64,000 bases of DNA from Candidatus Azobacteroides sp. (GTDB taxonomy: Bacteria; Bacteroidota; Bacteroidia; Bacteroidales; WRGA01). Below the pieces are notes generated by a model. It saw nothing but the letters and a program-made list of their open reading frames with translations, was not told the origin of the DNA and made no database searches. Of the stretch, positions 21,868 through 48,171 are shown piece after piece. The stretch covers positions 937-64,936 of the forward strand of contig JAJQEC010000135.1 of assembly GCA_021201815.1 (NCBI GenBank), written 5' to 3'. Numbering within the stretch: position 1 is the first letter of the stretch; each line of letters starts with the position of its first letter. A program made the translations under genes and the position numbers.

Positions 21868-22848
21868 TTACATTTTCCCCATTATCTTATCGATAACCCG
21901 AGAGGTTCTTGCGCCACTCACCCCGGTAGAAGGGCATTTCCCGTTTCCTCTTAATTCTTCGATAATCGATTGAATGAGGGGCTGCTGGATATGTTGCGGA
22001 TGTTCTGTGGTATAGAATTCCCTGCCTCTATGAGTAGCTAATTCAATAGGTTTAAAAGCGAAGGTATTAAAACGGATATATCCTTTTTCTCCGTTGATTT
22101 CTACTATATCTTTTTCCTCGCCTTCGGCTCCTGCATAATTCCATTGCCCTGTTCCCTGGATACCGGACTGAAATCTGAAAATAGCAGAAACCGTATCTTC
22201 AACCGGATACAGGTTTCCAAGGTTTGCGGAGAATCCTTTCGCTTCTGTGATTTCCCCCAATAGAAAGTCGAGGATATCCAGTGTGTGGGGAGCCATGTCA
22301 TAAAAATATCCCCCTCCGGCAATTTCTTTTTTTACTCTCCAGGAATGGCTTTCGACGTTTTTATCCGATGGCAAAGGTGCTCTGCTGTATTGTATGGTTA
22401 CGGTTTGAAGTTTACCTAATTCATTATTATCCAGTAATTCTTTTACTTTTAAAAAATAAGGAAGCGTCCGTCTGTAATAAGCCACAAAGAGCTTCCGGTT
22501 TGTCTCTTCCGCTACTTTCAGCATTTCCAGGCATTCCGGATAATTCATCGCCATGGGTTTTTCTACGTATACGGTTTTTCCGGCACGCATGGCTTTAATG
22601 GCATATTCTTTATGGCTTTCCGGGGGAGTAGCGATGTAAACAGCATCTATATCCGGATTTAGGATGATTTTGTCTGCTTCTGAATAATAAGAAGGTACTC
22701 CATGCCTTAACGCAAAGTCTTTTGCTTTCTGGTTATCTCTCCGCATGACAGCCACCAGAGAGGAATGTTCCGATTTATAAAATGCCGGTCCGCTTTTTAC
22801 TTTACAGACATCTCCACAGCCGATTATTCCCCAGCGTATTTTATCCAT
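21868..22848 (-). CDS. Gfo/Idh/MocA-family oxidoreductase
   Basis: N-terminus IRWGIIGCGDV; conserved EKPMA motif (VYVEKPMAMN). Confidence 0.85.
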   Translation of the reverse strand: MDKIRWGIIGCGDVCKVKSGPAFYKSEHSSLVAVMRRDNQKAKDFALRHGVPSYYSEADKIILNPDIDAVYIATPPESHKEYAIKAMRAGKTVYVEKPMAMNYPECLEMLKVAEETNRKLFVAYYRRTLPYFLKVKELLDNNELGKLQTVTIQYSRAPLPSDKNVESHSWRVKKEIAGGGYFYDMAPHTLDILDFLLGEITEAKGFSANLGNLYPVEDTVSAIFRFQSGIQGTGQWNYAGAEGEEKDIVEINGEKGYIRFNTFAFKPIELATHRGREFYTTEHPQHIQQPLIQSIIEELRGNGKCPSTGVSGARTSRVIDKIMGKM

Positions 22849-22863
22849 AGATAATTAATGTGT

Positions 22864-23904
22864 TTATTTTCCCTCCCATACTAATGCACTGGCTCCTAAT
22901 ACTGCCGCATCCGCATGGTCATTGAGGGCTGAAATTTCAATTCTGGTTTTCCCCTGATAGATATTTAATAAAGACTGATTCATATATTTTCTTACCGGAT
23001 TTAATAATAAGTCACCGGATTTTACTAATCCGCCAAAGAGCACAATCATTTCCGGGTCGGAGAAAGCAATATAGTCTGCCATGGCTTCACCCAGGACTTT
23101 TCCTGTATATTCGAATATTTCATGCGCCAGCAGATCTCCTTTTTCCGCATATTCTGCTACATCTTTGGAGCATATAAGGAGGTCTTCTTTGTATCCTTCC
23201 TGTTGTAATGCAAGCAGCCCTTTCTTTTTTCTGGCATCATAAATTTGTTTCAGGTTGCTGGGGTTATCTTTTTTACTTACTTCCAGAAATTCAATTGCTG
23301 TACGCGCAAGTCCTTTTGCTGAGACGTATGTTTCCGCACACCCGTATCTTCCACATCCGCATCGTCTGCCTCCGTTTCTTCTTACGATGATATGTCCCAG
23401 TTCTCCGGCCAGGCCATTATGTCCTCTTATTAGTTTTCCTTCGGCAATGATACCGCTTCCTAATCCGGTGCCCAAAGTAATCATAATAAAATTCGCTACC
23501 CCTTTTCCTTTTCCGTATTTCCATTCTCCTAAGGCAGCAACGTTCGCATCATTATCAAGGGAAGTAGGAAGATTGATTTTTTCTTCCATCATTTTTACGA
23601 TTTCGATTTTCTCATCGCTCCAGGGAAGGTTCGGGTTCTTTTCAATCGTTCCGGAGCGATAACTGGCTGTAGGGGCTCCGATTCCGATTCCTTCTATCTT
23701 ATTTAAAGTAAGAATTTCTTTTTTTTCTTCGATCAGATCTTCTATATTATTACATAAGGCAAGGATAAAATCTTTTACGTTTTTATGTTGATGAGTACGT
23801 ACCGGATTTTCCCGGTTGGATACGATGATTTCTCCGTTTTTATCAACAATTCCGATTGTTGCACTTCCTCCTCCGATATCAATTCCAACAGCGTAATCTC
23901 TCAT
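22864..23904 (-). CDS. ROK-family sugar kinase (glucokinase-like)
   Basis: AVGIDIGGGSATIG ATP-binding motif. ROK Zn motif GHIIVRRNGGRRCGCGRYGCAETY. Confidence 0.85.
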   Translation of the reverse strand: MRDYAVGIDIGGGSATIGIVDKNGEIIVSNRENPVRTHQHKNVKDFILALCNNIEDLIEEKKEILTLNKIEGIGIGAPTASYRSGTIEKNPNLPWSDEKIEIVKMMEEKINLPTSLDNDANVAALGEWKYGKGKGVANFIMITLGTGLGSGIIAEGKLIRGHNGLAGELGHIIVRRNGGRRCGCGRYGCAETYVSAKGLARTAIEFLEVSKKDNPSNLKQIYDARKKKGLLALQQEGYKEDLLICSKDVAEYAEKGDLLAHEIFEYTGKVLGEAMADYIAFSDPEMIVLFGGLVKSGDLLLNPVRKYMNQSLLNIYQGKTRIEISALNDHADAAVLGASALVWEGK

Positions 23905-23937
23905 AAAGGTGCTAGTTAATAAATTTAATAAATAAAA

Positions 23938-25251
23938 TTAAAATTCTATTTTTACTTTAGGTTTCAGGTTATCTTCCATTGTCCAGAAGTAAGCTTCTCC
24001 ATGGGGAATATAAAATAATACTAATTCTTCACTATCGGCAGTCATTCCGAATTCTTTTAAAAAAGGTCGGTCTTCCAACGCTTTTTCTTTATATTTTCTT
24101 TCATTCAGGAATTCGGTTTTACCGGCAATTCTCAGCATAGTTCCTAATCCTTGTTCCGGTTTGTAAAAACAAACTTCCACGTTCGGGTTTTGTTGGAGTT
24201 GCGCCGGGATTTCCTTCACGGAAGCGGTTTGGAAATAAAACCCTGTTTCGTCTGCAAACCAGAATCCCAGTGCCCTTACCCGGGGCCGGTCATTTTCTAT
24301 GGTTGCCAGGTAACAAACCGGATTTGCATTGGTGAATTGAATGCAATCTTGAATTGTCTTCATATTATTTGTTTTTTTATATGGTTTTTCTAATAATTCA
24401 TGTATTTTCTGAGCTACATCTTCCATAAGCCACTTGGGAGTAGAAGTTGCGCCACTGATGCCAATGGAAGAAATATTTTTAAGATCGTCTTTCCGGATAT
24501 CACTGGGTCCTGAAATTCTTATGGAATTAGGATTTGCGTCTTTACATTCTTCATAGAGTATTTTTCCATTGGAACTTTTTTCTCCACTTACAAAAAAAAC
24601 AAGATCATAGGCTGAAGCGAATTTCCTGATATTGGGTATCCGGTTTGCTACCTGCCGGCATATCGTATCGAAATATTCGAAATCAACATCTCCGTTAATT
24701 CTTTCTTTTATTTCTTTGATAATTTCCGAAAATCCTTCCAGGGATTTAGTGGTCTGTGAGAATAATTTTATCGGCCGGGTAAAATCAATACGGGAAAGAT
24801 CTTCCGGATTCTCGATTACAATTGCCTGATTCTGTGTTTGTCCGACCAGGCCATTTACTTCGGCATGTCCGGCTTTCCCATAAATTACAATTTGTGTATC
24901 CTTAGGATTTCTGTTATCATACGTCTTTTTTATTTTCCGTTGCAATTGTAAAACCACCGGGCATGTAGCATCAATAATACGGATGTCATTTTCTTTTGCG
25001 ATGTGGTAGGTGGAGGGAGGCTCTCCATGTGCTCTTAAAAGCACTTTCGCATGTTTCAGCTTGCTGAGCCGGGCATGATTAATACTGACCAGTCCGATGG
25101 ATTTCAGGCGCTCTACTTCATAACTATTATGCACAATATCTCCGAGGCAATATAAAATTTCATTATTCTTCAATTCATTTTCAGCCTGATGAATTGCATT
25201 TACTACTCCGAAACAAAAGCCGGAACCCTTTTCTATCTCGATTTTTACCAT
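23938..25251 (-). CDS. ispH: 4-hydroxy-3-methylbut-2-enyl diphosphate reductase (IspH) fused to a C-terminal PNPOx-like FMN-binding split-barrel domain
   Basis: IspH Cys motifs GFCFGV, ATCPVV, DTICRQV and the IspH C-terminal signature GATSTPKWL. The reading frame then continues without a stop into about 141 aa (coded 24363 down to 23938): MKTIQDCIQFTNANPVCYLATIENDRPRVRALGFWF.... Confidence 0.85.
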   Translation of the reverse strand: MVKIEIEKGSGFCFGVVNAIHQAENELKNNEILYCLGDIVHNSYEVERLKSIGLVSINHARLSKLKHAKVLLRAHGEPPSTYHIAKENDIRIIDATCPVVLQLQRKIKKTYDNRNPKDTQIVIYGKAGHAEVNGLVGQTQNQAIVIENPEDLSRIDFTRPIKLFSQTTKSLEGFSEIIKEIKERINGDVDFEYFDTICRQVANRIPNIRKFASAYDLVFFVSGEKSSNGKILYEECKDANPNSIRISGPSDIRKDDLKNISSIGISGATSTPKWLMEDVAQKIHELLEKPYKKTNNMKTIQDCIQFTNANPVCYLATIENDRPRVRALGFWFADETGFYFQTASVKEIPAQLQQNPNVEVCFYKPEQGLGTMLRIAGKTEFLNERKYKEKALEDRPFLKEFGMTADSEELVLFYIPHGEAYFWTMEDNLKPKVKIEF

Positions 25252-25633
25252 TTTAGTTGATTCGTTCTACAAATGTACAAATTATCTCCTCTGTTGTTTT
25301 CATTTAATGGAAAAGATAAAAAAATAAATTTTTATAATGGATTTTATACTAAAACTATTACTTTTGGCGTTTATATTCTGAAACCTGTGAAAAAATAACC
25401 CATTTGCCCACTTACGATACCAGCATGAAACAAGTTTCAATTTTTACAGTTATTATTTATTACTCTTTTTTAATTGTTTCCTTAATCTATGCTTTTACTT
25501 TTTTATTGTTTTATATTCCTTGCAGAGCAATAAATAAAATAAGAGAAAAGACAGTTGCAATGAAGTCAGATGCTCCAAAGGTATTTAATCATGGCTTGCC
25601 GGATTTTCTGAGTATTAAGCAGAAGAATATGGA

Positions 25634-25969
25634 TTAATTTCCTGTTTTCTTTTTTAAGTAATAAACAAAAGAATAGGGTTTTCGATGAATCAAATAATCG
25701 GAATTCCTGTCATTCTCATATGCTTCTCTTTCAAAGCTTATCTGGAAATAAGCTTCTTTCCCATATAATACTAATTTATAGATCCATTCAAAAAGGTACC
25801 ATACGTAAAACAGAAGGTAAAATAGTTCTTTCATTTGCGCTGAATGAATGGCTTCGTGATTCAGGATGGTTTTTGTAATTATTATCCCTTTCCTGACGAA
25901 TAGGATTCCAAATAAGTTTATGGCAGCAAAATCTTTGGTTGGAATAATATTGTTATATATTAATTTCAT
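25634..25969 (-). CDS. Small HExxH-motif protein (putative mini-metallopeptidase), family not identified
   Basis: LNHEAIHSAQ motif followed by a hydrophobic helix and FEREAYEN (possible third ligand Glu). Confidence 0.5.
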   Translation of the reverse strand: MKLIYNNIIPTKDFAAINLFGILFVRKGIIITKTILNHEAIHSAQMKELFYLLFYVWYLFEWIYKLVLYGKEAYFQISFEREAYENDRNSDYLIHRKPYSFVYYLKKKTGN

Positions 25970-26149
25970 CTTGTGTTTTTTATGTAAACGAAAAGAGGAA
26001 GTATTTGTTTATTTTCCTGATTTTACGGGAGGTATATACTGCATGTTGTTTATTTGAGTAAGTAATAATAAGTGTTTTATTAAAAAATAATAAAATGACG
26101 AGTTTTCATAAGGCCTTATAGGGGTATTCTTTCTGATTCTATTACCTGC

Positions 26150-28032: not shown

Positions 28033-29220
28033 ATGAAAAAAATACTTTATTTTATTTTATCTTCTTTTCTTTTGTTTGCGTGCGGGAATGATGAAAAGTC
28101 GGTAAAAATATCAGTTACCAATGATTCTCCTTTAGAAAGGATAAATGAGATCATTGAAATATCGTGGGCAGATATTAAAGAAAAGTTAGGACTGACAGAT
28201 TCTTCTGTTATTGTAGTTTTAAATGATCAGCAAATTCCTTATCAGTTGATTACAGAAGGAAATAATGAGCCGGAGAAGTTAATATTTCCGGTAAATGTTC
28301 AGGCCGGCGAAACTGTTATCTATACGGTTAAAAGCGGAGATCCCGAAGATTTTACAGTAAAAACATACGGTCGTTTTGTCCCGGAACGGAAAGATGACTT
28401 TGCATGGGAAAATAATAAAATAGCTTTCCGTATGTACGGTCCGGCTCTCTTGCCTATTGATGGCCCGAGTAATGGGATAGATGCCTGGGTAAAAAGAACG
28501 GAAGAAATGATCATTGATAAATGGTATAAAAATGATTTGGCAGGTGTTGCTTCTTATCATATAGATCATGGGGAAGGACTTGATGGGTATAAAGTAGGAC
28601 GTACGCTGGGTGCCGGAGGAATGGCTCCTTTTGTAAATGATACTTTATGGCTTGCAGAAAATTACGTTACTCAGGAATTATTAGATCAGGGGCCGTTAAG
28701 AACATCTTTCAGACTTACTTATAAACCCTTTAATGTAAATGGGGATAGTTCTGTGGTAGAAACTAAGATAATTAGTCTTGATGCCGATTCTTATTTTAAT
28801 AAAGTAATAGAAAAATATCAGGGAATTAAAGCGGCTATTCCTGTAGCAGCAGGTATTGTTTTGAAAACAAATGAAGCGAAACCTGTGGATAAAACAGAAG
28901 ATGCTGATCCTGCTTACAAAGCTGTTTTACAACCGGAAAAAGGATATGTTATCTATGCGGAAACAGCGGATAAAGCTGCTCCTGAACACGATAACGGAAT
29001 TATTTATACGGCCGTTATATTTCCAACTCCTCTTAAAGAAGCTAAATTGGCAGAAAAACATGCTTTGGCTATTGTGGACTATCAACCGGAAGAAAGTCTG
29101 GTATATTACAATGGGGTAGGTTGGAGCAAAGCTGGTTTTAATTCGGAAGAAGAATGGGTAACGTATGTAGATCAATTTGCTGAAAAACTAAGAAGTCCGT
29201 TAAAAGTAAGTTTAAAATAA
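28033..29220 (+). CDS. DUF4861-family lipoprotein
   Basis: Lipobox LLFACG. Signature YGRFVPERKDDFAWENNKIAFRMYGPAL...GIDAWVKR as I recall it for DUF4861. Confidence 0.8.
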   Translation: MKKILYFILSSFLLFACGNDEKSVKISVTNDSPLERINEIIEISWADIKEKLGLTDSSVIVVLNDQQIPYQLITEGNNEPEKLIFPVNVQAGETVIYTVKSGDPEDFTVKTYGRFVPERKDDFAWENNKIAFRMYGPALLPIDGPSNGIDAWVKRTEEMIIDKWYKNDLAGVASYHIDHGEGLDGYKVGRTLGAGGMAPFVNDTLWLAENYVTQELLDQGPLRTSFRLTYKPFNVNGDSSVVETKIISLDADSYFNKVIEKYQGIKAAIPVAAGIVLKTNEAKPVDKTEDADPAYKAVLQPEKGYVIYAETADKAAPEHDNGIIYTAVIFPTPLKEAKLAEKHALAIVDYQPEESLVYYNGVGWSKAGFNSEEEWVTYVDQFAEKLRSPLKVSLK

Positions 29221-29873: not shown

Positions 29874-31130
29874 TTAATCCCGAAGCATTCTTATTTTAAC
29901 AGGGTTGAGAATATCTTCTTTCCATGCTTCCAGGTATTTAAAAAAGTCTTCCGGGTTTTTATATCCGAATTCTTCTTTTTCTGCAGCAGCCGTAATATAG
30001 TAACTGATCTGGAAATCTTCATTATTATTTAATAGGAAAAGATGATTTACATTATCTTCTACATTTTTTTCACTGATATATTCTTTTGGAACAAATACAC
30101 CTAATCCTACTGTTTCCTTTGCGTATTTTATGGTGTCGTTTACCGGCCAGTCTGTTCCCCATATTCCCAATAATCCGTCGTTGTCTGTGAATAACTCCGA
30201 ATCAGGCAGTTTTTGCACCCCTGTAGCAAATAATATATCTTTTGGAAGCATTTTTACTTCGTCTTCTTCTTTTTGGAACAGAATATTCATCACCTCTACA
30301 TCTCTATGGCCTGCATACATAATATAGCGGCTTACCATAGTGAATTTTTCACCCATATACTCCCAACCGTGAGAAGTCATATCCACAATTGTTCTTACAG
30401 GACCGTTGGAAATTATCCTTGCATCCCTGTTATCTACCGGAGAAATATGGATTGCTTTTTTACCGTTCCAGCCTTTTAGTGTACCTACTCCTACACTTCC
30501 ACTCACCCGGAGGATATCATCCCCGTATTTTTTTTCCAGTTGTTCATCTGTCGGATACCAGTTTGTTTCCTGTAATTCGAGCCTTTTTATTTTTTTTCCG
30601 TATAGATCAACTGTTTGTTTTTGATCAAAGTAAATTCTATAAGCCATTAATTCGGACTCGAAAGCAGGGCCATGGTGATGAAAGGCGTTATAAAGATCTC
30701 CTGTTTCAGATGCTGCGGTAATTACAGGTTTAAAAGATTTTTCAGAGTCTTTTTCCAGTAACTGAGCATGGACTTTATTGGGATATCGTCCGGCCACAGA
30801 TTCTTCTACCGACAATTCAATTTTAAGTTTTTTTGCTTCGAGGGGCTTCATGTTAATTACAAATGCCAATTCATCGAATGTTCCATTCGCATCCAAATCA
30901 TCCAGTTGGGAAGGTATTTCCTGCCTTTTATCCCATACTGTTGCTGATTTTATTATTACATCCGAAAGTTTTAAAACAACGGGGGCATTTTCTTTTGGTG
31001 TATTTGAAAGATTTGTAACAACTATTTCAAAGTTTTTTTTCCCGGCTTCAATGATAAACTGGGCATGTGTAGAAAAGCAAACCAAAAAAGAGAAAATAAG
31101 AAGAAAAGTAATTTTTGTAGTTGATTTCAT
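29874..31130 (-). CDS. DUF4861-family secreted protein, divergent paralogue
   Basis: Signal peptide. N-terminal beta-sandwich-like NFEIVVTNLSNTPKENAPVVLKLSD parallels ISVTNDSPLERINEIIEISWAD of 28033..29220. Core FESELMAYRIYFDQKQTVDLYGKK. Confidence 0.7.
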   Translation of the reverse strand: MKSTTKITFLLIFSFLVCFSTHAQFIIEAGKKNFEIVVTNLSNTPKENAPVVLKLSDVIIKSATVWDKRQEIPSQLDDLDANGTFDELAFVINMKPLEAKKLKIELSVEESVAGRYPNKVHAQLLEKDSEKSFKPVITAASETGDLYNAFHHHGPAFESELMAYRIYFDQKQTVDLYGKKIKRLELQETNWYPTDEQLEKKYGDDILRVSGSVGVGTLKGWNGKKAIHISPVDNRDARIISNGPVRTIVDMTSHGWEYMGEKFTMVSRYIMYAGHRDVEVMNILFQKEEDEVKMLPKDILFATGVQKLPDSELFTDNDGLLGIWGTDWPVNDTIKYAKETVGLGVFVPKEYISEKNVEDNVNHLFLLNNNEDFQISYYITAAAEKEEFGYKNPEDFFKYLEAWKEDILNPVKIRMLRD

Positions 31131-42858: not shown

Positions 42859-43272
42859 ATGGGTAGGATTTTAGCAATAGATTATGGTCAGAAGAGAACA
42901 GGAATTGCTTCTACTGATCCATTACAAATTATAGCTAATGGATTAGGGACATTCCCTTCTGATAAAATAATGGATTTTCTTAAAGAATATATATTAAAAG
43001 AATCGGTTGAATTATTTATAGTAGGAATGCCCTATAAGATGAATAATGAACCTTCTGATAATATGCCATATGTATTATCTTTTGTTAAGAAACTTAAGAA
43101 AGTATTTCCTTCCATACCTGTAGAATATGTAGATGAAAGATTTACTTCTAAATTAGCTAAACAAGCAATTTTAAGTGGTGGGGTAAAAAAAATGAAGCGT
43201 CGGAACAAAGCATTAATAGATGAAATCAGTGCCGTCATCATTTTACAAACTTATTTAGAAAGTAGAAAATAA
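42859..43272 (+). CDS. ruvX: Holliday-junction-resolvase-like nuclease RuvX (YqgF)
   Basis: [16 protein letters not shown] motif. ATG 42859 is preferred because a -7 box TAACTTTG (42842-42849) overlaps the ORF-track start at 42847. Confidence 0.85.
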
Positions 43273-43294
43273 ATTAAAACACATTTTAAAGTTA

Positions 43295-43852
43295 ATGATT
43301 TTACCTGTTTATTTATATGGTAATCCGATTCTTCGGAAAGTTGCGGAAGATATTACAGCTGATTATCTGGAATTATCAAAGTTAGTTGAGAATATGTTCG
43401 AAACAATGTACAATGCCGAAGGCGTAGGATTAGCAGCTCCGCAGATAGGGTTAGGTATTCGTGTGGTTGTAATAGATCTGGATATAATTTCTGACGATAT
43501 TCCTGAATTGAAAGGATTTAAAAAGACTTTTATAAATCCACATATTCTTGAAAAAAGCGGAGAAGAAGTCAGTCAGGAAGAAGGATGTTTAAGTTTACCG
43601 GGAATTCATGAGTCAGTAAAACGTTCTTCCAGAATAAGATTACAATATATGGATGAAAATTTTATTCTGCATGATGAAGTTTTTGAAGGATATAAAGCGA
43701 GAGTAATTCAACATGAATTTGACCATCTGGATGGGAAGATGTTTATAGATCATACTTCCCCTATTCGGAAGCAGTTGATAAAGAGTAAACTCAATAATAT
43801 CGTATCAGGAAAAGTAAATTGCTCTTATAGAACAAAATCTGTAAGAAAATGA
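43295..43852 (+). CDS. def: Peptide deformylase
   Basis: Motifs [26 protein letters not shown]. Confidence 0.95.
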
Positions 43853-43943
43853 AATAATAAAGGTTGTCAGAAATTTTATTTTCCTGATAACCTTTGTTAT
43901 TTTTTCATATTAATGCATTTAAAGTAAATTAATACTAATTGAA

Positions 43944-45490
43944 ATGACTTCTTTAAAGAAAAATATTCTTGATTTAAGAGAAAAAAGGCAATTGTTCAAC
44001 AAGGAGGAGGAGAAGAAGCAATTGAAAAGCAGGTCGCTATGGGAAAGCTTACAGCTCGTCAGCGAATTCTTGAATTATTGGATAATGATTCTTTTCATGA
44101 ATATGACCTATTTGTTGAACACGGTGTCCATGATTTTGGGATGGACAAAAAAGTGTTGTATGGAGATGGAGTAATTACAGGAACAGGTACAATTTTCGGT
44201 GCACCTGTTTGTATATATGCTCAGGATTTTACGGTGGCCGGAGGGTCGCTAGGATTAATGCATGCTCGTAAGATCACCAAAATAATGGACCATGCATTGA
44301 AAATGAAAATGCCTATTATTGGTATTAATGATTCCGGAGGTGCCCGTATTCAGGAAGGTGTTGCTTCTTTGGCCGGTTATGGTGAAATTTTTTACAGAAA
44401 TACGATTGCCTCTGGTATTATACCCCAGTTGTCAGTGATACTTGGGCCATGTGCGGGAGGTGCTGTTTATTCTCCTGCGTTAACGGATTTTGTATTTGTA
44501 GTAGAAAATATTTCTAAAATGTTTATTACAGGTCCAAATGTAATCAAAACAGTGTTAGGGGAAGATATTTCAATGGAGGATCTGGGAGGAGCGAAAGTGC
44601 ATGCTGAAATAACCGGGAATGCTCACTTTTATGCACAAAGCGAAGCGGAATGTTTTGAACAAATAAAGAAACTAATTTCTTTTATACCCTGGAGTAATAA
44701 GCAGAAAGCTGAGAAAATTGAGCCAAAAGAACCTGCTTTTGATAAAAGAATAGAAGATATTATTCCATCTGATGCAAAAGAACCTTATGATGTAAGGGAT
44801 ATTATAAAATCGGTAGTAGATGATTCGGATTTCTTTGAAATACAGGAATTGTTTGCTGGAAATATTGTGATTGGTTTTGGAAGAATGAATGGAGAAACAG
44901 TAGGTTTTGTGGCGAATCAACCTATGGTATTAGCCGGAGTATTAGATTGCGACAGCTCGGATAAAGCTGCAAGGTTTATACGTTTTTGTGATTCTTTTAA
45001 TATCCCGATTATAACTTTTGAAGATATGCCGGGATATTTACCTGGTGTAGATCAGGAGCATGCCGGAGTAATAAGACACGGAGCGAAAGTATTGTATGCT
45101 TATTCTGAAGCTACTGTTCCTAAAATTACCGTAATTTTGCGAAAAGCCTATGGAGGAGGATATATTGCAATGAATTCCAGACATCTTGGTGCCGATTTTA
45201 TGTTTGCCTGGCCTTCAGCGGAAATTGCTGTAATGGGCCCGGAAGGAGCTGCGAATATTATTTTCAGAAAAGAAATAATGGAAGCAGAAGATCAGAATGC
45301 TATGAGGCAGGAGAAAGTAAAAGAATATATTGAAAAATTTGCAAATCCATATGTTGCTGCTTCAAAAGGTTATATTGATTCTGTAATTGAGCCGACAGAA
45401 ACAAGAACTTTATTATTACATGCCCTGGAAGTATCTAAAAATAAAGAGGAGATAAGACCGGAGAAAAAGCACGGACTTCCTCCGTTTTAA
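43944..45490 (+). CDS. Acyl-CoA carboxyltransferase (methylmalonyl-CoA decarboxylase alpha / propionyl-CoA carboxylase beta type), N-terminus displaced by a 1-nt indel in an A6 run
   Basis: ORF 44039..45490 holds the carboxyltransferase core. ORF 43944..44174 supplies MTSLKKNILDLREK. Adding one A to A6 (43981-43986) gives ...DLREKKAIVQQGGGEEAIEKQVAMGKLTARQRILELLD, a typical N-terminus for this family. Confidence 0.85.
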
Positions 45491-45554
45491 GAACTTTTGT
45501 ATAAAGATTGATTTGTATTAAATTAATTATAATACTCTTTATTTTAGAAAAATA

Positions 45555-45887
45555 ATGGATGAAAATAAGAATATAGAAGATTATAATCTGGTTGAATTTG
45601 TTGTAACAGCAAGGAAATATAAAACTACCCTTACAAAAAAATATCAACAAAGACAAAAGTGGGAAAAACCGGTAATAGGACAAATAAAGTCGTTTCTACC
45701 GGGAACTGTAATGTCCTTATGTGTAGAAAAAGGACAAAAAGTAAAAGAAGGTGAGCTGATATTGGAACAGGAAGCAATGAAAATGCTTAATCAGATTACT
45801 GCCCCGATTTCCGGAATTGTAACAGAGATATATGTAGAAGTCGGACAAAAAGTACCGAAGAATTTTCTGATGATCGAAATAAAATAA
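45555..45887 (+). CDS. Biotin carboxyl carrier (biotinyl-domain) protein
   Basis: EAMKM biotinylation motif (LEQEAMKMLNQITAP) within a lipoyl/biotinyl fold. Confidence 0.85.
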   Translation: MDENKNIEDYNLVEFVVTARKYKTTLTKKYQQRQKWEKPVIGQIKSFLPGTVMSLCVEKGQKVKEGELILEQEAMKMLNQITAPISGIVTEIYVEVGQKVPKNFLMIEIK

Positions 45888-45904
45888 AAATAAATTTATA
45901 ACCT

Positions 45905-47056
45905 ATGTCAAAAGTAGCTCTTATTACTGGAATAACAGGGCAGGATGGTGCCTATTTAACGGAGTATCTGTTAAAAAAAGGATATACGGTTCATGGTATC
46001 AAACGTCGTTCTTCTTTGTTCAATACAGATCGGATTGATCACTTATATCAGGATCCTCACGTAGTAAACAGAAATTTAATACTGCATTATGGGGATTTAA
46101 CGGATTCTATGAATATTACCCGTATTATTCAGGAAACACAACCTGATGAGATATATAATCTTGCGGCAATGAGTCATGTAAAAGTCAGTTTTGACTCGCC
46201 GGAATATACTGCAAATGCTGATGGTATCGGAACTTTGCGTATATTAGAAGCGGTTCGTTTGTTAGGATTGACTAATAAGACCCGAATATATCAGGCTTCT
46301 ACATCTGAATTATATGGGTTGGTACAGGAAGTCCCTCAAAAGGAAACTACACCCTTTTATCCCCGCAGTCCTTATGCGGTAGCTAAGTTATATGGTTACT
46401 GGATAACAGTTAATTATAGAGAGGCATATAATATGCATGCTAGTAATGGAATATTGTTTAATCATGAATCTCCGATTCGAGGGGAAACTTTTGTAACCCG
46501 GAAGATAACCAGGGCTGTAAGTCGTATCATGCTGGGAATGCAGGAGAAAGTTTATTTGGGAAATCTTTCTGCCCGTAGAGACTGGGGACATGCAAAAGAC
46601 TATGTGAAAGCTATGTATTTAATCCTTCAGCAGGATACAGCTTCTGATTATGTAATTGCCACCGGAATAACAACTGAAGTAAGGGAGTTTGTGAAAATGG
46701 CTTTTGCAGAAGGAGGGGTAGAAATAAATTTCAGGGGAGAAGGTGTCGATGAAAAAGGGTATATTGCATCTGTCGATGAAAAAGTATTCAAAGAAAAAGT
46801 AGGAGAGGAATATCTCCCTGTTATTTTATCTAAAAAAGATACAGTTGTGGTTGCTGTTGATCCTCAATATTTCCGCCCAACCGAAGTGGAACTTCTAATT
46901 GGAGATCCGACAAAATCGAAAACTACATTAGGTTGGGAGCCAAAGTATGATTTACCGGGGCTGGTTGCAGATATGATGGAAGGAGATATTAAGTTGATGA
47001 AAAAAGATTCTTACCTTAAGGATGGTGGCTACCGGATTATGAATTACTTTGAATAA
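45905..47056 (+). CDS. gmd: GDP-mannose 4,6-dehydratase
   Basis: [19 protein letters not shown]; [10 protein letters not shown] catalytic YxxxK. Confidence 0.95.
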
Positions 47057-47115
47057 ATAATTAAGAGGAAAGTTTACTATTTTAAATTTTGAAGTAGTAA
47101 AAATATAATTCAAAT

Positions 47116-48171
47116 ATGATAGATAAAAATGCCAAAATATATATAGCTGGTCATGCCGGGATGGTCGGATCTGCTATTTATCGTAATTTGCAGGGGAAAG
47201 GATATGCTAATATCATAACCCGTGATTATCCGGAACTGGATTTGATTAATCAGGCTGAAGTAGAAGCTTTTTTTGCAGGAGAAAAGCCAGAGTATGTCGT
47301 ATTAGCCGCAGCTAAAGTTGGTGGTATTGTAGCAAATAATACCTATCGGGCACAATTTATATATGAAAATCTGATGATTCAAAATAACATTATTCACGCT
47401 TCTTATAAAAATGGTGTGAAAAAACTGTTATTTCTTGGTTCTTCTTGTATTTATCCCCGTTTGGCCCCTCAACCAATTAAAGAAGAATATCTGCTGACAG
47501 GTGAACTGGAACCGACAAATGAACCTTATGCAATTGCAAAAATAGCCGGTATAAAAATGTGTGAAGCTTATCATTCTCAATATGGTTCTAACTTTATCTC
47601 GGTTATGCCGACAAATTTATATGGAAAAAATGATAATTATGACCTTGAAAAAAGTCATGTATTACCAGCTTTAATTCGTAAAATGTATTTGGCTAAATGC
47701 TTAATGGCTGATGACTGGGTAGCCATTTGCAAAGATCTGAATAAGCGTCCTGTTGAAGGAGTATCCGGAGGAAATTCGGATTCGGAAATTTTGTCTATTC
47801 TGTCTAAATATGGTATATCAGGTAAAAATGTTACTTTGTGGGGAACAGGGGCTCCTTTGAGAGAATTTTTAAATGTTGAAGATATGGCCGATGCCTGTGT
47901 TTTCATGTTGCAGAATTATAATGCTCCTGATACATTTCCGGCTCATGTAAATATCGGTTTTGGGGAAGACTTAAGTATAAAAGAGTTAGCTGAAATTGTT
48001 AAAAACATTGTCGGTTATGACGGTGAGATTATATGGGATCGTACAAAACCGGACGGAACTCCGCGCAAACTAATGGATAGTTCGAAATTATATTCTCTTG
48101 GATGGAAGCCTCAAATATCTTTACCAGAAGGAATATCAGACGTATTTAAAAATTATCTTGAATACAAGTAA
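47116..48171 (+). CDS. fcl: GDP-L-fucose synthase
   Basis: [14 protein letters not shown]; YAIAKIAG YxxxK; directly follows gmd. Confidence 0.9.

What the first reader, a model, noticed from the sequence alone, without database searches (positions are those of the whole stretch)
23938..25251. IspH fused in frame to a PNPOx-like FMN-binding split-barrel domain
The IspH part is complete: three Fe-S Cys motifs and the terminal GATSTPKWL...IHELLEK. After a short linker (PYKKTNN) a full ~141-aa PNPOx/general-stress-protein-26-like domain begins with its own Met (coded at 24363-24361), with no intervening stop. IspH needs an external electron donor, so a covalently attached flavin domain could be a built-in redox partner. 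Alternatively this is two genes merged by stop-codon loss or a sequencing error.
Basis: partly seen in the sequence, partly recalled or inferred. Interest (0 to 1): 0.6.

Follow-up and report, generated by a model that had tools for sequence, protein, structure and literature searches.

The report
One-off IspH fused to flavin-type domain
In this uncultured Bacteroidales bacterium the only gene for the isoprenoid enzyme IspH runs without a stop into a small flavin-binding-type protein, but no other genome examined has this fusion, so it looks like a recent local accident rather than a proven built-in electron supply.

Summary
Window 23938-25251(-) is one 437-aa frame: a complete IspH (res 1-289), a 7-residue linker PYKKTNN, and a complete 141-aa PNPOx-like split-barrel domain starting at Met297.

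The fusion was found only in this genome.
- All three congeners end IspH with a stop at about 289-293 aa.
- Among 401 genomes of the order, only this one matched over residues 1-437 (150 best matches shown).
- None of 160 loci encoding close relatives of the tail is fused to ispH, and one has ispH within 3 kb.
- Word-indexed and full HMMER searches found no LytB+PNPOx protein.

The DNA is probably real. The exact 437-aa protein is also on record on 2 Logan contigs, and no junction word of 19 nt or more recurs in the genome. No reads could be obtained.

The join lies at a synteny breakpoint. NCBI calls only the 141-aa part. The genome keeps flavodoxin genes.

Best reading: a young, lineage-specific fusion with IspH still working. 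The redox-partner idea is unsupported but not excluded.

The scan has noted other IspH fusions on other DNA, none with this partner.

The parts
23938..25251 (-). Whole fused ORF, 437 aa plus TAA stop (23938-23940). It is the only LytB-family gene in the genome.
   Evidence: ORF and DNA; 1 LYTB match in G000; the exact protein is also on 2 Logan contigs.
24385..25251 (-). IspH (HMBPP reductase) part, residues 1-289. Full length, with all columns that are invariant in the family alignment kept.
   Evidence: LYTB 5-283, E 3.9e-80; NF002187, 366 bits against cut-off 276; all invariant columns of 12 aligned IspH kept, including C13, C97, C198, H41, H75, H129, E131, S226-S227-N228, S270; orthologues end at the same place.
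24364..24384 (-). Linker PYKKTNN (residues 290-296), encoded by CCATATAAAAAAACAAATAAT. It is A/T-rich like the leaders upstream of stand-alone relatives and contains an A7 run. The A5 run lies in the two codons just upstream (GAA AAA, 24385-24390). Reading in either other frame meets a stop within 9 codons.
   Evidence: frames 0 and 1 give ...KKQII* and ...KTI*; leaders of relatives are unconserved and A/T-rich; the closest orthologue has its stop codon at the first linker codon.
23941..24363 (-). PNPOx-like split-barrel domain, residues 297-437 (141 aa), beginning with its ancestral ATG (24363-24361). NCBI annotates this part alone as a CDS.
   Evidence: PNPOx_N, 44.9 bits against cut-off 28.1; 52-75% identical to 19 relatives, all 29 invariant columns kept; AF2 pLDDT 92.6; 2ig6, TM 0.77-0.81; P0002, 141 aa, source NCBI nr, on a contig of 66548 nt, the length of C114.
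25634..25969 (-). 111-aa gene with no Pfam family. It is a conserved neighbour of ispH in congeners but in the opposite relative orientation, which marks the rearrangement at ispH.
   Evidence: in G001 and G002 this gene converges on the ispH 3' end; tblastn synteny; no Pfam match.
22864..23904 (-). ROK-family gene 33 nt downstream of the fused ORF on the same strand. It is the first gene of the poorly conserved flank that came with the PNPOx gene.
   Evidence: coordinates; ROK, E 8e-61; only 50% identity to the best congener hits; (the left flank has far fewer and weaker DNA matches to congeners than the right flank).

Best explanation
This is a real, evolutionarily young gene fusion confined to this species.

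A local rearrangement flipped ispH relative to its conserved neighbour and placed a formerly stand-alone 141-aa PNPOx-like gene, with about 21 nt of its A/T-rich leader, where the ispH stop codon used to be. The frame therefore runs on.

The product is a normal HMBPP reductase (a [4Fe-4S] enzyme, the last step of the MEP pathway) carrying a C-terminal split-barrel domain on a 7-residue tether. IspH must still work, because it is the only copy in a genome scored 100% complete.

The tail is still a well-conserved, foldable domain. It may also be made separately from its own Met297, whose A-rich leader is intact. NCBI annotates it that way.

Functional coupling between the two halves is not shown. 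The most likely status is a tolerated passenger, like the single-species IspH fusions already in the literature.

Shown: the ORF, both domains intact, uniqueness among the genomes and proteins searched, the synteny break, and an independent record of the same protein.

Inferred: the order of events, IspH activity, separate translation of the tail, and lack of coupling.
For: ORF and domains.

Congeners G001, G002 and G003 have IspH of 289, 291 and 293 aa ending in a stop. G001 has its stop exactly where this gene has Pro290.

G001 has the tail's orthologue (72% over 141 aa) on another contig, between genes whose G000 homologues lie on contigs C79 and C95.

Gene order is A(-), ispH(+), 111-aa gene(-) in G001. 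Here it is ispH(-), 111-aa gene(-), A(-). DNA of the ispH-side flank matches the congeners much better (22, 17 and 11 matches) than the PNPOx-side flank (6, 8 and 2).

Uniqueness:
- Only 1 of 41 and 1 of 401 genomes (G000 itself) match over 1-437.
- 0 of 160 PNPOx loci are fused.
- No LytB+PNPOx protein turned up.

Reality of the DNA:
- The exact 437-aa protein is on 2 Logan contigs, the longest 9967 nt.
- 0 junction words of 19, 21 or 25 nt occur elsewhere in the genome.
- GC and GC3 are similar in the two halves: 0.385/0.343 and 0.402/0.376.

There is a single LYTB match in G000.

Precedent: Rao et al. 2015 list four IspH fusion types each known from one species (PMC4746011, passages read).
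Against: No reads could be examined, so read support rests on the Logan record alone. The Logan contigs may come from the same sample as the MAG.

The join lies in A5 and A7 runs where one base more or less would separate the genes.

The fused tail differs at 5 of 69 near-invariant columns, against 0-4 in 18 orthologues. This could mean either relaxed or new constraint.

One search listed only the best 150 of 435 matches, and the flanks are at most 3 kb, so a distant fused form could have been missed. Fused proteins can also hide inside clusters whose representative is short, as this one does.
Confidence: 0.6

Rival explanations
1. Built-in redox module. The split-barrel domain binds FMN and passes electrons to the [4Fe-4S] cluster of IspH, replacing or assisting flavodoxin or ferredoxin. 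The fusion would be adaptive.
For: The tail has a confident PNPOx-like fold (pLDDT 92.6). Its nearest solved relatives include entries titled as FMN-, FAD- or flavin-nucleotide-binding proteins. It keeps all 29 invariant columns of its family.

IspH needs an external reductant, flavodoxin or ferredoxin (PMC9745026 and PMC13001223, passages).

A reference list cites a module fusion of a flavin-reductase domain to a flavodiiron protein in Synechocystis (Vicente 2002, seen only as a citation in PMC12204192). That is a precedent for a fused electron-input domain of this superfamily.

This is the sole ispH copy, so the fused form is what the cell uses.
Against: The fusion is a singleton.

Unfused relatives of the tail do not sit next to ispH (1 of 160 loci, opposite strand, 2.7 kb away).

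G000 keeps two Flavodoxin_1 matches.

The tail's subfamily is otherwise fused to LytTR DNA-binding domains: 3 of 13 long hits, and one. That points to ligand binding or sensing rather than electron delivery.

The cofactor is unknown, because the same fold also includes heme binders.
Confidence: 0.12
2. Artefact. The two genes are separate in the cell and appear fused through a base-calling or assembly error (an indel in the A5 or A7 run, a missed stop, or a chimeric join of two genome regions).
For: The genome is a 151-contig draft.

The join lies in homopolymers, and both other frames stop within 9 codons.

The join coincides with a synteny and conservation boundary.

NCBI's annotation gives only the 141-aa protein on this contig.
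Against: The exact 437-aa protein was called on 2 Logan contigs. I recall that Logan assembles each public run separately with its own assembler.

No junction word of 19 nt or more recurs in the genome.

The PNPOx-side flank has typical composition for this genome, at the 49th-58th percentile of tetranucleotide distance.

Even with a stop restored, the ispH-PNPOx adjacency with a spacer of about 20 nt or less would still be unique.
Confidence: 0.12
3. Regulatory or protective appendage. The split-barrel domain binds a small molecule (flavin, heme or another ligand) and tunes or shields the oxygen-sensitive IspH cluster. Alternatively, slippage on the A7 run sets the ratio of free to fused IspH.
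For: The subfamily recurs as the N-terminal domain of LytTR regulators.

The superfamily includes members reported to sequester FAD and non-enzymatic regulatory families (PMC12204192, passage).

The A7 run sits in the linker, and a -1 shift there would stop two codons later (my reading of the DNA).
Against: There is no direct evidence. The fusion is a singleton. A7 is short for efficient slippage, which is recalled knowledge and was not tested.
Confidence: 0.08

Closest known systems
IspH-RPS1 and IspH-UbiA 'Rosetta stone' fusions, and the four single-species IspH fusions (CMP kinase, helicase in 'Bacteroidales bacterium CF', fructose bisphosphatase, UDP/PNP phosphorylase). Rao, O'Dowd, Li, Wang, Oldfield 2015, Chem Sci, PMC4746011 (passages read).
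   Same: A complete IspH domain is joined in frame to an unrelated domain. As in IspH-RPS1, it is the organism's only ispH. As in the four single-species cases, it is known from one lineage only, one of them also a Bacteroidales.
   Different: The partner is a PNPOx-like split-barrel domain, which is not among the partners listed there. There is no recurrence (447 and 47 sequences for RPS1 and UbiA, against 1 here). The linker is only 7 residues and is derived from intergenic-looking DNA.
Stand-alone 140-145-aa PNPOx-like proteins of Bacteroidales, Methanobacteriaceae and other lineages (loci L017-L176). The closest solved structure is 2IG6, 'NimC/NimA family protein' CA_C2569 of Clostridium acetobutylicum.
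   Same: The tail is 57-75% identical to these over its whole length. It has the same start Met and the same end, and 29 of 29 invariant columns. The fold matches 2IG6 at TM 0.77-0.81 with 27-28% identity.
   Different: All 160 relatives examined lack an IspH fusion. The fused copy has 5 changes at near-invariant columns: E17A, Q30R, D93E, P117E, R123Y in alignment numbering. No function is known for the subfamily. It is not the true PdxH oxidase (17.5 bits against cut-off 129).
Flavodoxin or ferredoxin as separate electron donors of IspH (E. coli flavodoxin/flavodoxin reductase; Plasmodium ferredoxin). Reviews PMC9745026 and PMC13001223 (passages).
   Same: If the tail binds flavin it could in principle do the same job of bringing reducing equivalents to the cluster.
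   Different: The fold and family differ (split barrel, not flavodoxin-like), it is covalently attached, and it is unproven. The genome still encodes Flavodoxin_1 proteins.
Flavodiiron proteins with a fused flavin-reductase (split-barrel) module in Synechocystis. Vicente et al. 2002, seen only as a reference title in PMC12204192; the rest is recalled.
   Same: A split-barrel flavin domain is fused C-terminally to a metallo-redox enzyme, condensing an electron-transfer chain into one polypeptide.
   Different: The branch of the superfamily differs (I recall it as the flavin-reductase type). Those fusions are conserved across cyanobacteria and shown biochemically. Here neither holds.

Membership tests
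IspH/LytB, HMBPP reductase (Pfam PF02401; NCBIfam NF002187) | Profile score above the curated cut-offs over the full domain | tested here: met
   PF02401: 269.4 bits against 24.5, residues 5-283 on profile positions 2-266 of 267. NF002187 equivalog: 366 bits against 276, residues 2-286.
IspH/LytB, HMBPP reductase | Three cysteines that hold the [4Fe-4S] cluster (their role is recalled from E. coli C12, C96, C197) | tested here: met
   C13, C97 and C198 are in columns invariant across 12 aligned IspH sequences.
IspH/LytB, HMBPP reductase | Substrate-binding and catalytic residues (His, Glu, Thr and the Ser-Ser-Asn and Ser motifs; their roles are recalled) | tested here: met
   H41, H75, H129, E131, T167, T168, S226, S227, N228 and S270 are all in invariant columns and are kept. 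The only departures at columns conserved at 90% or more are D7E and C266S.
IspH/LytB, HMBPP reductase | Enzyme activity (HMBPP to IPP and DMAPP) | not testable with these tools
   Inferred from the intact residues and from being the only LYTB match in a genome scored 100% complete.
PNPOx-like FMN-binding split barrel (Pfam PF01243) | Profile score above the gathering cut-off | tested here: met
   44.9 bits against 28.1, residues 305-392.
PNPOx-like FMN-binding split barrel | Split-barrel fold | tested here: met
   AF2 model of residues 297-437: pLDDT 92.6, pTM 0.86. Foldseek found 173 PDB matches at E <= 0.001. The best is 2ig6 (TM 0.77-0.81), then 2hhz, 2i02, 2fhq, 2hq7.
PNPOx-like FMN-binding split barrel | Binds FMN or FAD | not testable with these tools
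   The cofactor is not predictable here. The same fold list also holds heme binders (3tgv HutZ, 3swj ChuZ, 5bnc).
True pyridoxal 5'-phosphate synthase PdxH (NCBIfam NF004231) | Score above the curated cut-off | tested here: not met
   17.5 bits against a cut-off of 129. The tail is not PdxH.
Nim 5-nitroimidazole reductase family | Sequence membership in a Nim model | tested here: inconclusive
   The closest PDB entry is titled 'NimC/NimA family protein' (2ig6, E 6e-11, 27-28% identity). No Nim model appeared among the NCBIfam hits at E <= 0.01. 2fg9, titled a putative 5-nitroimidazole antibiotic resistance protein (BT_3078), ranks only 29th by fold.
'Rosetta stone' (functionally linked) fusion | The same fusion recurs in many species | tested here: not met
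   Only G000 matches over 1-437 in 41 and in 401 genomes. 0 of 160 PNPOx loci are fused. None of 13 longer proteins, none of the 150 best representatives (the longest is 316 aa; 0 of 13 checked have LYTB), and none of 120 listed IspH relatives has both domains.
'Rosetta stone' (functionally linked) fusion | The unfused partners are conserved neighbours elsewhere | tested here: not met
   1 of 160 loci has any IspH hit within the flanks of up to 3 kb, on the opposite strand 2.7 kb away. In G001 and G012 the two genes are on different contigs.

The most novel reading that the evidence does not exclude
This would be the first natural IspH with its own covalently attached cofactor domain. The split-barrel tail would bind flavin and either feed electrons to the [4Fe-4S] cluster or gate or protect it. 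The A7 run in the linker, or the retained internal start at Met297, would let the cell make free and fused forms from one message.
Probability: 0.1. Interest if true: 0.65.

Novelty: new variant of a known kind. Interest (0 to 1): 0.3.

Why it matters
IspH and IspG are the redox bottlenecks of the MEP pathway, and they limit engineered terpenoid production because they need matched electron donors (PMC13001223, passages). A natural IspH carrying its own flavin module would be a ready-made design and a hint about donors in anaerobes.

As it stands, the evidence says something more modest. IspH tolerates yet another C-terminal passenger, and such fusions arise sporadically at rearrangement breakpoints in Bacteroidales.

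The case also shows how annotation handles such genes. NCBI keeps only the 141-aa tail, so the genome's only ispH probably has no protein record there.

Tried and rejected
Read support: the look-up of sequencing runs listed no run for window 23000-26000 (none was listed, no RNA holder listed). Read laying was therefore never used.

Binding of the two halves: complex prediction with IspH 1-289 (alignment A2), the tail (A1), 4Fe-4S and FMN gave 'no answer', score 0.00 in two runs, and the controls were not run. This is not evidence either way.

Full-length fold: the combined alignment A3 was misaligned by MAFFT. The PNPOx rows scored only 20-29% identity to the query, against 52-75% in A1. It was not folded.

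Breakpoint mapping: leaders upstream of the tail's relatives are not conserved between species. A shared GAAAAAC between G000 and G001 cannot be called homology, so the exact breakpoint stays open.

Sigma-70 promoter and terminator scan of 22700-25800: 11 promoter-like sites against 9.1 expected, and 2 terminator-like sites against 2.9. It is uninformative, and the consensus probably does not suit Bacteroidota (recalled).

Composition as a chimera test: the PNPOx-side flank is typical for the genome. The ispH-side flank is the odd one (GC 0.328, 98th percentile), yet it is the side that is syntenic with congeners. The test does not discriminate.

The ROK gene as a marker of shared ancestry of the left flank: only 50% identity to congeners, so it is probably a paralogue.

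ESM Atlas: only plain IspH clusters, at score 0.76.

Long open frames at ispH in G359, G251 and G105 turned out to be Arg/Pro/Gly-rich read-through upstream of the start and not domains. G179 is a normal 294-aa frame.

Full report
**What is there**

Window 23938-25251 on the minus strand is a single ATG-initiated frame of 437 codons with no internal stop.

Residues 5-283 match Pfam LYTB (E 3.9e-80). Residues 2-286 match the NCBIfam IspH equivalog NF002187 at 366 bits against a cut-off of 276.

I aligned it with 11 IspH sequences from the same order, 55-80% identical. It keeps every invariant column, including C13, C97, C198, H41, H75, H129, E131, T167-T168, S226-S227-N228 and S270. The roles of these residues are recalled from E. 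coli IspH and were not tested. It departs at only two near-invariant columns, D7E and C266S.

The IspH part ends at ...HELLEK (residue 289). The closest orthologue, G001, is 289 aa and has its TAA at exactly the next codon.

Then come seven residues, PYKKTNN, encoded by CCATATAAAAAAACAAATAAT. After them, Met297 (24363-24361) opens a 141-aa PNPOx-like domain (PF01243, 44.9 bits against cut-off 28.1).

The tail aligns from first to last residue with 19 relatives (52-75% identity) and keeps all 29 invariant columns. An AlphaFold2 model of it is confident (pLDDT 92.6, pTM 0.86). The model is a split barrel closest to PDB 2IG6, a 'NimC/NimA family protein' (TM 0.77-0.81; sequence E 6e-11).

The tail is not the true PdxH oxidase (17.5 bits against a cut-off of 129).

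**Is the fusion shared?**

No, not in anything I could search.

- In 41 genomes (G000 plus 40 relatives), 38 have an IspH match. Only G000 matches over 1-437.
- The three congeners stop after 289, 291 and 293 aa.
- In G001 and G012 the tail's close homologue (69%; 72% over 141 aa) lies on a different contig from ispH.
- In a sample of 401 genomes of the order, 373 have a match. Among the 150 best matches listed, only G000's goes past residue 332, and every match running past residue 300 contains stop codons. A further 285 weaker matches were not listed.

Searching from the tail's side, scans with residues 250-437 found 273 relatives in metagenome contigs and 250 in species-representative genomes. 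I kept the best 80 of each. My tblastn on these 160 loci found the PNPOx gene in 160 of 160. It found an IspH hit in 1 of 160 (L117, opposite strand, about 2.7 kb away) and a fusion in 0 of 160. Flanks were at most 3 kb, and shorter at contig ends.

Protein-level searches agree:
- No protein of 240-765 aa scored with the tail (231 candidates).
- A profile of the tail against proteins of 248-2000 aa gave 13 hits, none with PF02401.
- A full HMMER pass over 1.84 billion representatives gave 898 hits at E <= 0.001. Of the best 150 the longest is 316 aa, and 0 of the 13 long or N-extended ones carry LYTB.
- The 120 best IspH relatives listed are all 284-315 aa with PF02401 only, and the best is 81% identical.

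One caveat applies. These collections show cluster representatives, and this very fusion is hidden in a cluster whose representative is the 141-aa tail. A rare fused form elsewhere could be hidden the same way.

**Is the DNA real?**

I could not inspect reads, because no sequencing run was listed. Three indirect points favour reality.

1. The exact 437-aa sequence is in the 15-billion-protein collection under the source Logan, on 2 contigs, the longest 9967 nt. I recall that Logan assembles each public run separately with its own assembler. If so, the open junction was reproduced independently of the MAG assembly, though possibly from the same sample.
2. No word of 19, 21 or 25 nt from 24301-24460 occurs elsewhere in the 4.22-Mb genome. 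There are 2 hits at 17 nt and 13 at 15 nt. No repeat is therefore present to mislead an assembler within this genome.
3. The two halves have similar GC and GC3 (0.385/0.343 and 0.402/0.376). The PNPOx-side flank has typical tetranucleotide composition for this genome, at the 49th-58th percentile.

Several points count against certainty. The A5 run (in the last two IspH codons) and the A7 run (in the linker) flank the join, and in both other frames a stop follows within nine codons (...KTI* and ...KKQII*, the latter overlapping the ATG as ATGA). One miscounted base would therefore separate the genes. The same cluster's NCBI member is the 141-aa tail alone, on a contig of 66548 nt, which is the length of this contig. 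NCBI's annotation thus does not treat the ORF as one protein.

**How it arose**

In G001 the order is A(-), ispH(+), 111-aa gene(-), followed after a further stretch by a block that matches window 42859-48156. Here the order is fused ispH(-), 111-aa gene(-), A(-) at 29874-31130, then the same block. ispH is therefore flipped relative to its conserved neighbour and now lies at the edge of the syntenic region.

The DNA on the ispH side has many matches to the three congeners (22, 17 and 11). The DNA on the PNPOx side (ROK, two GFO/IDH/MocA genes, a nitroreductase, an AraC/GyrI-like regulator) has few and weaker matches (6, 8 and 2).

In G001 the tail's orthologue sits between two genes whose G000 homologues are on contigs C79 and C95. 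At least one rearrangement therefore brought the PNPOx gene, with a short leader, against the 3' end of ispH at or next to its stop codon. The exact breakpoint cannot be mapped, because leaders are not conserved between species.

**What it probably does**

The fused gene is the only LYTB match in a genome scored 100% complete. The IspH half must therefore be active if the organism uses the MEP pathway. This is an inference.

For the tail, comparison argues against a dedicated link to IspH:
- It is a singleton fusion.
- There is no conserved neighbourhood.
- The genome keeps two Flavodoxin_1 matches, on C56 and C71. Flavodoxin is a usual IspH donor (PMC9745026 and PMC13001223, passages).
- The tail's subfamily, when fused at all, is joined to LytTR DNA-binding domains: P0033, P0041 and P0057, and P0004. 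That suggests a ligand-binding or sensing role.

The cofactor is unknown. The fold list contains flavin proteins but also heme binders. The superfamily covers reductases, heme degradation, FAD sequestration and regulatory roles (PMC12204192, passages).

The fused copy has 5 changes at 69 near-invariant columns, against 0-4 in 18 orthologues and 13 in the genome's own paralogue on C99. This is slightly high but not an outlier.

The intact Met297 with an A-rich leader leaves room for separate translation of the tail. That Bacteroidota favour A-rich leaders over Shine-Dalgarno sites is recalled and was not tested.

**Comparison with the literature**

Rao et al. 2015 (PMC4746011, passages read) surveyed IspH architectures. 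They found IspH-RPS1 (447 sequences) and IspH-UbiA (47). [quoted passage not shown] They treated high recurrence as the sign of functional linkage.

No PNPOx or other flavin-domain partner is listed there. My two full-text searches found no report of one:
- terms IspH, fusion protein, flavodoxin, domain architecture.
- terms IspH, LytB, split barrel, FMN-binding, gene fusion.

Earlier notes of this scan list IspH fused to UbiA, a radical-SAM enzyme and a prenyl synthase on other DNA, but not this partner. A look-up with the tail sequence found nothing.

**Verdict**

The thing is best described as a new, single-lineage variant of the known phenomenon of IspH fusion proteins. It was created at a rearrangement breakpoint and is probably tolerated rather than selected. 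My confidences are:
- Young, tolerated fusion: 0.6.
- Built-in redox module: about 0.12.
- Sequencing or assembly artefact: about 0.12.
- Regulatory or protective role: about 0.08.

Interest is modest (0.3) unless biochemistry shows coupling.

Noticed in passing
L180:564-3359 (+), that is G319:C298, a genome of the same order: One open frame of 932 aa joins a complete DXP synthase (DXP_synthase_N, Transket_pyr, Transketolase_C; residues 13-623) in frame to a complete IspH (LYTB 639-918, E 7e-78), with no stop and no Met between them (...AGIVAKAKFETGITIDIDTGSGFCYG...). This is a candidate natural fusion of the first and last MEP enzymes, and it is not among the IspH fusions listed by Rao et al. 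2015.
   Followed up: partly
L148, L152, L153, L156, L157, L161-L163, L173-L176 (genome-contig loci): The tail's PNPOx-like subfamily is 57-66% identical between Bacteroidales and Methanobacterium/Methanobacteriaceae, including an isolate, M. oryzae DSM 11106. It also appears in MAGs labelled Spirochaetes, Syntrophales and Cloacimonadota. This is unusually high conservation across domains for a 141-aa protein of unknown function, and it suggests transfer among anaerobes.
   Followed up: no
P0033, P0041, P0057 and P0004: Relatives of the same PNPOx-like subfamily occur as the N-terminal domain of 259-284-aa proteins with a C-terminal LytTR DNA-binding domain. This is a one-component regulator architecture in which the split barrel would be the sensor.
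   Followed up: partly
window 23938-25251, as annotated elsewhere: The NCBI nr protein from this contig is only the 141-aa tail (P0002). No IspH of 90% identity or more appears among the representatives. The genome's sole ispH probably has no protein record there, which could make the MEP pathway look incomplete in automated reconstructions.
   Followed up: partly
window 28033-29220 (+) and 29874-31130 (-): Two DUF4861 paralogues (E 1e-88 and 3e-104) face each other near ispH. One is the conserved ispH neighbour 'A' of the congener G001.
   Followed up: no
G000:C99:11616-12035 (L016:6626-7021, minus strand): This is a second, stand-alone PNPOx-like paralogue in the same genome. It is 51-53% identical to the tail, with 13 changes at near-invariant columns of the subfamily.
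   Followed up: no
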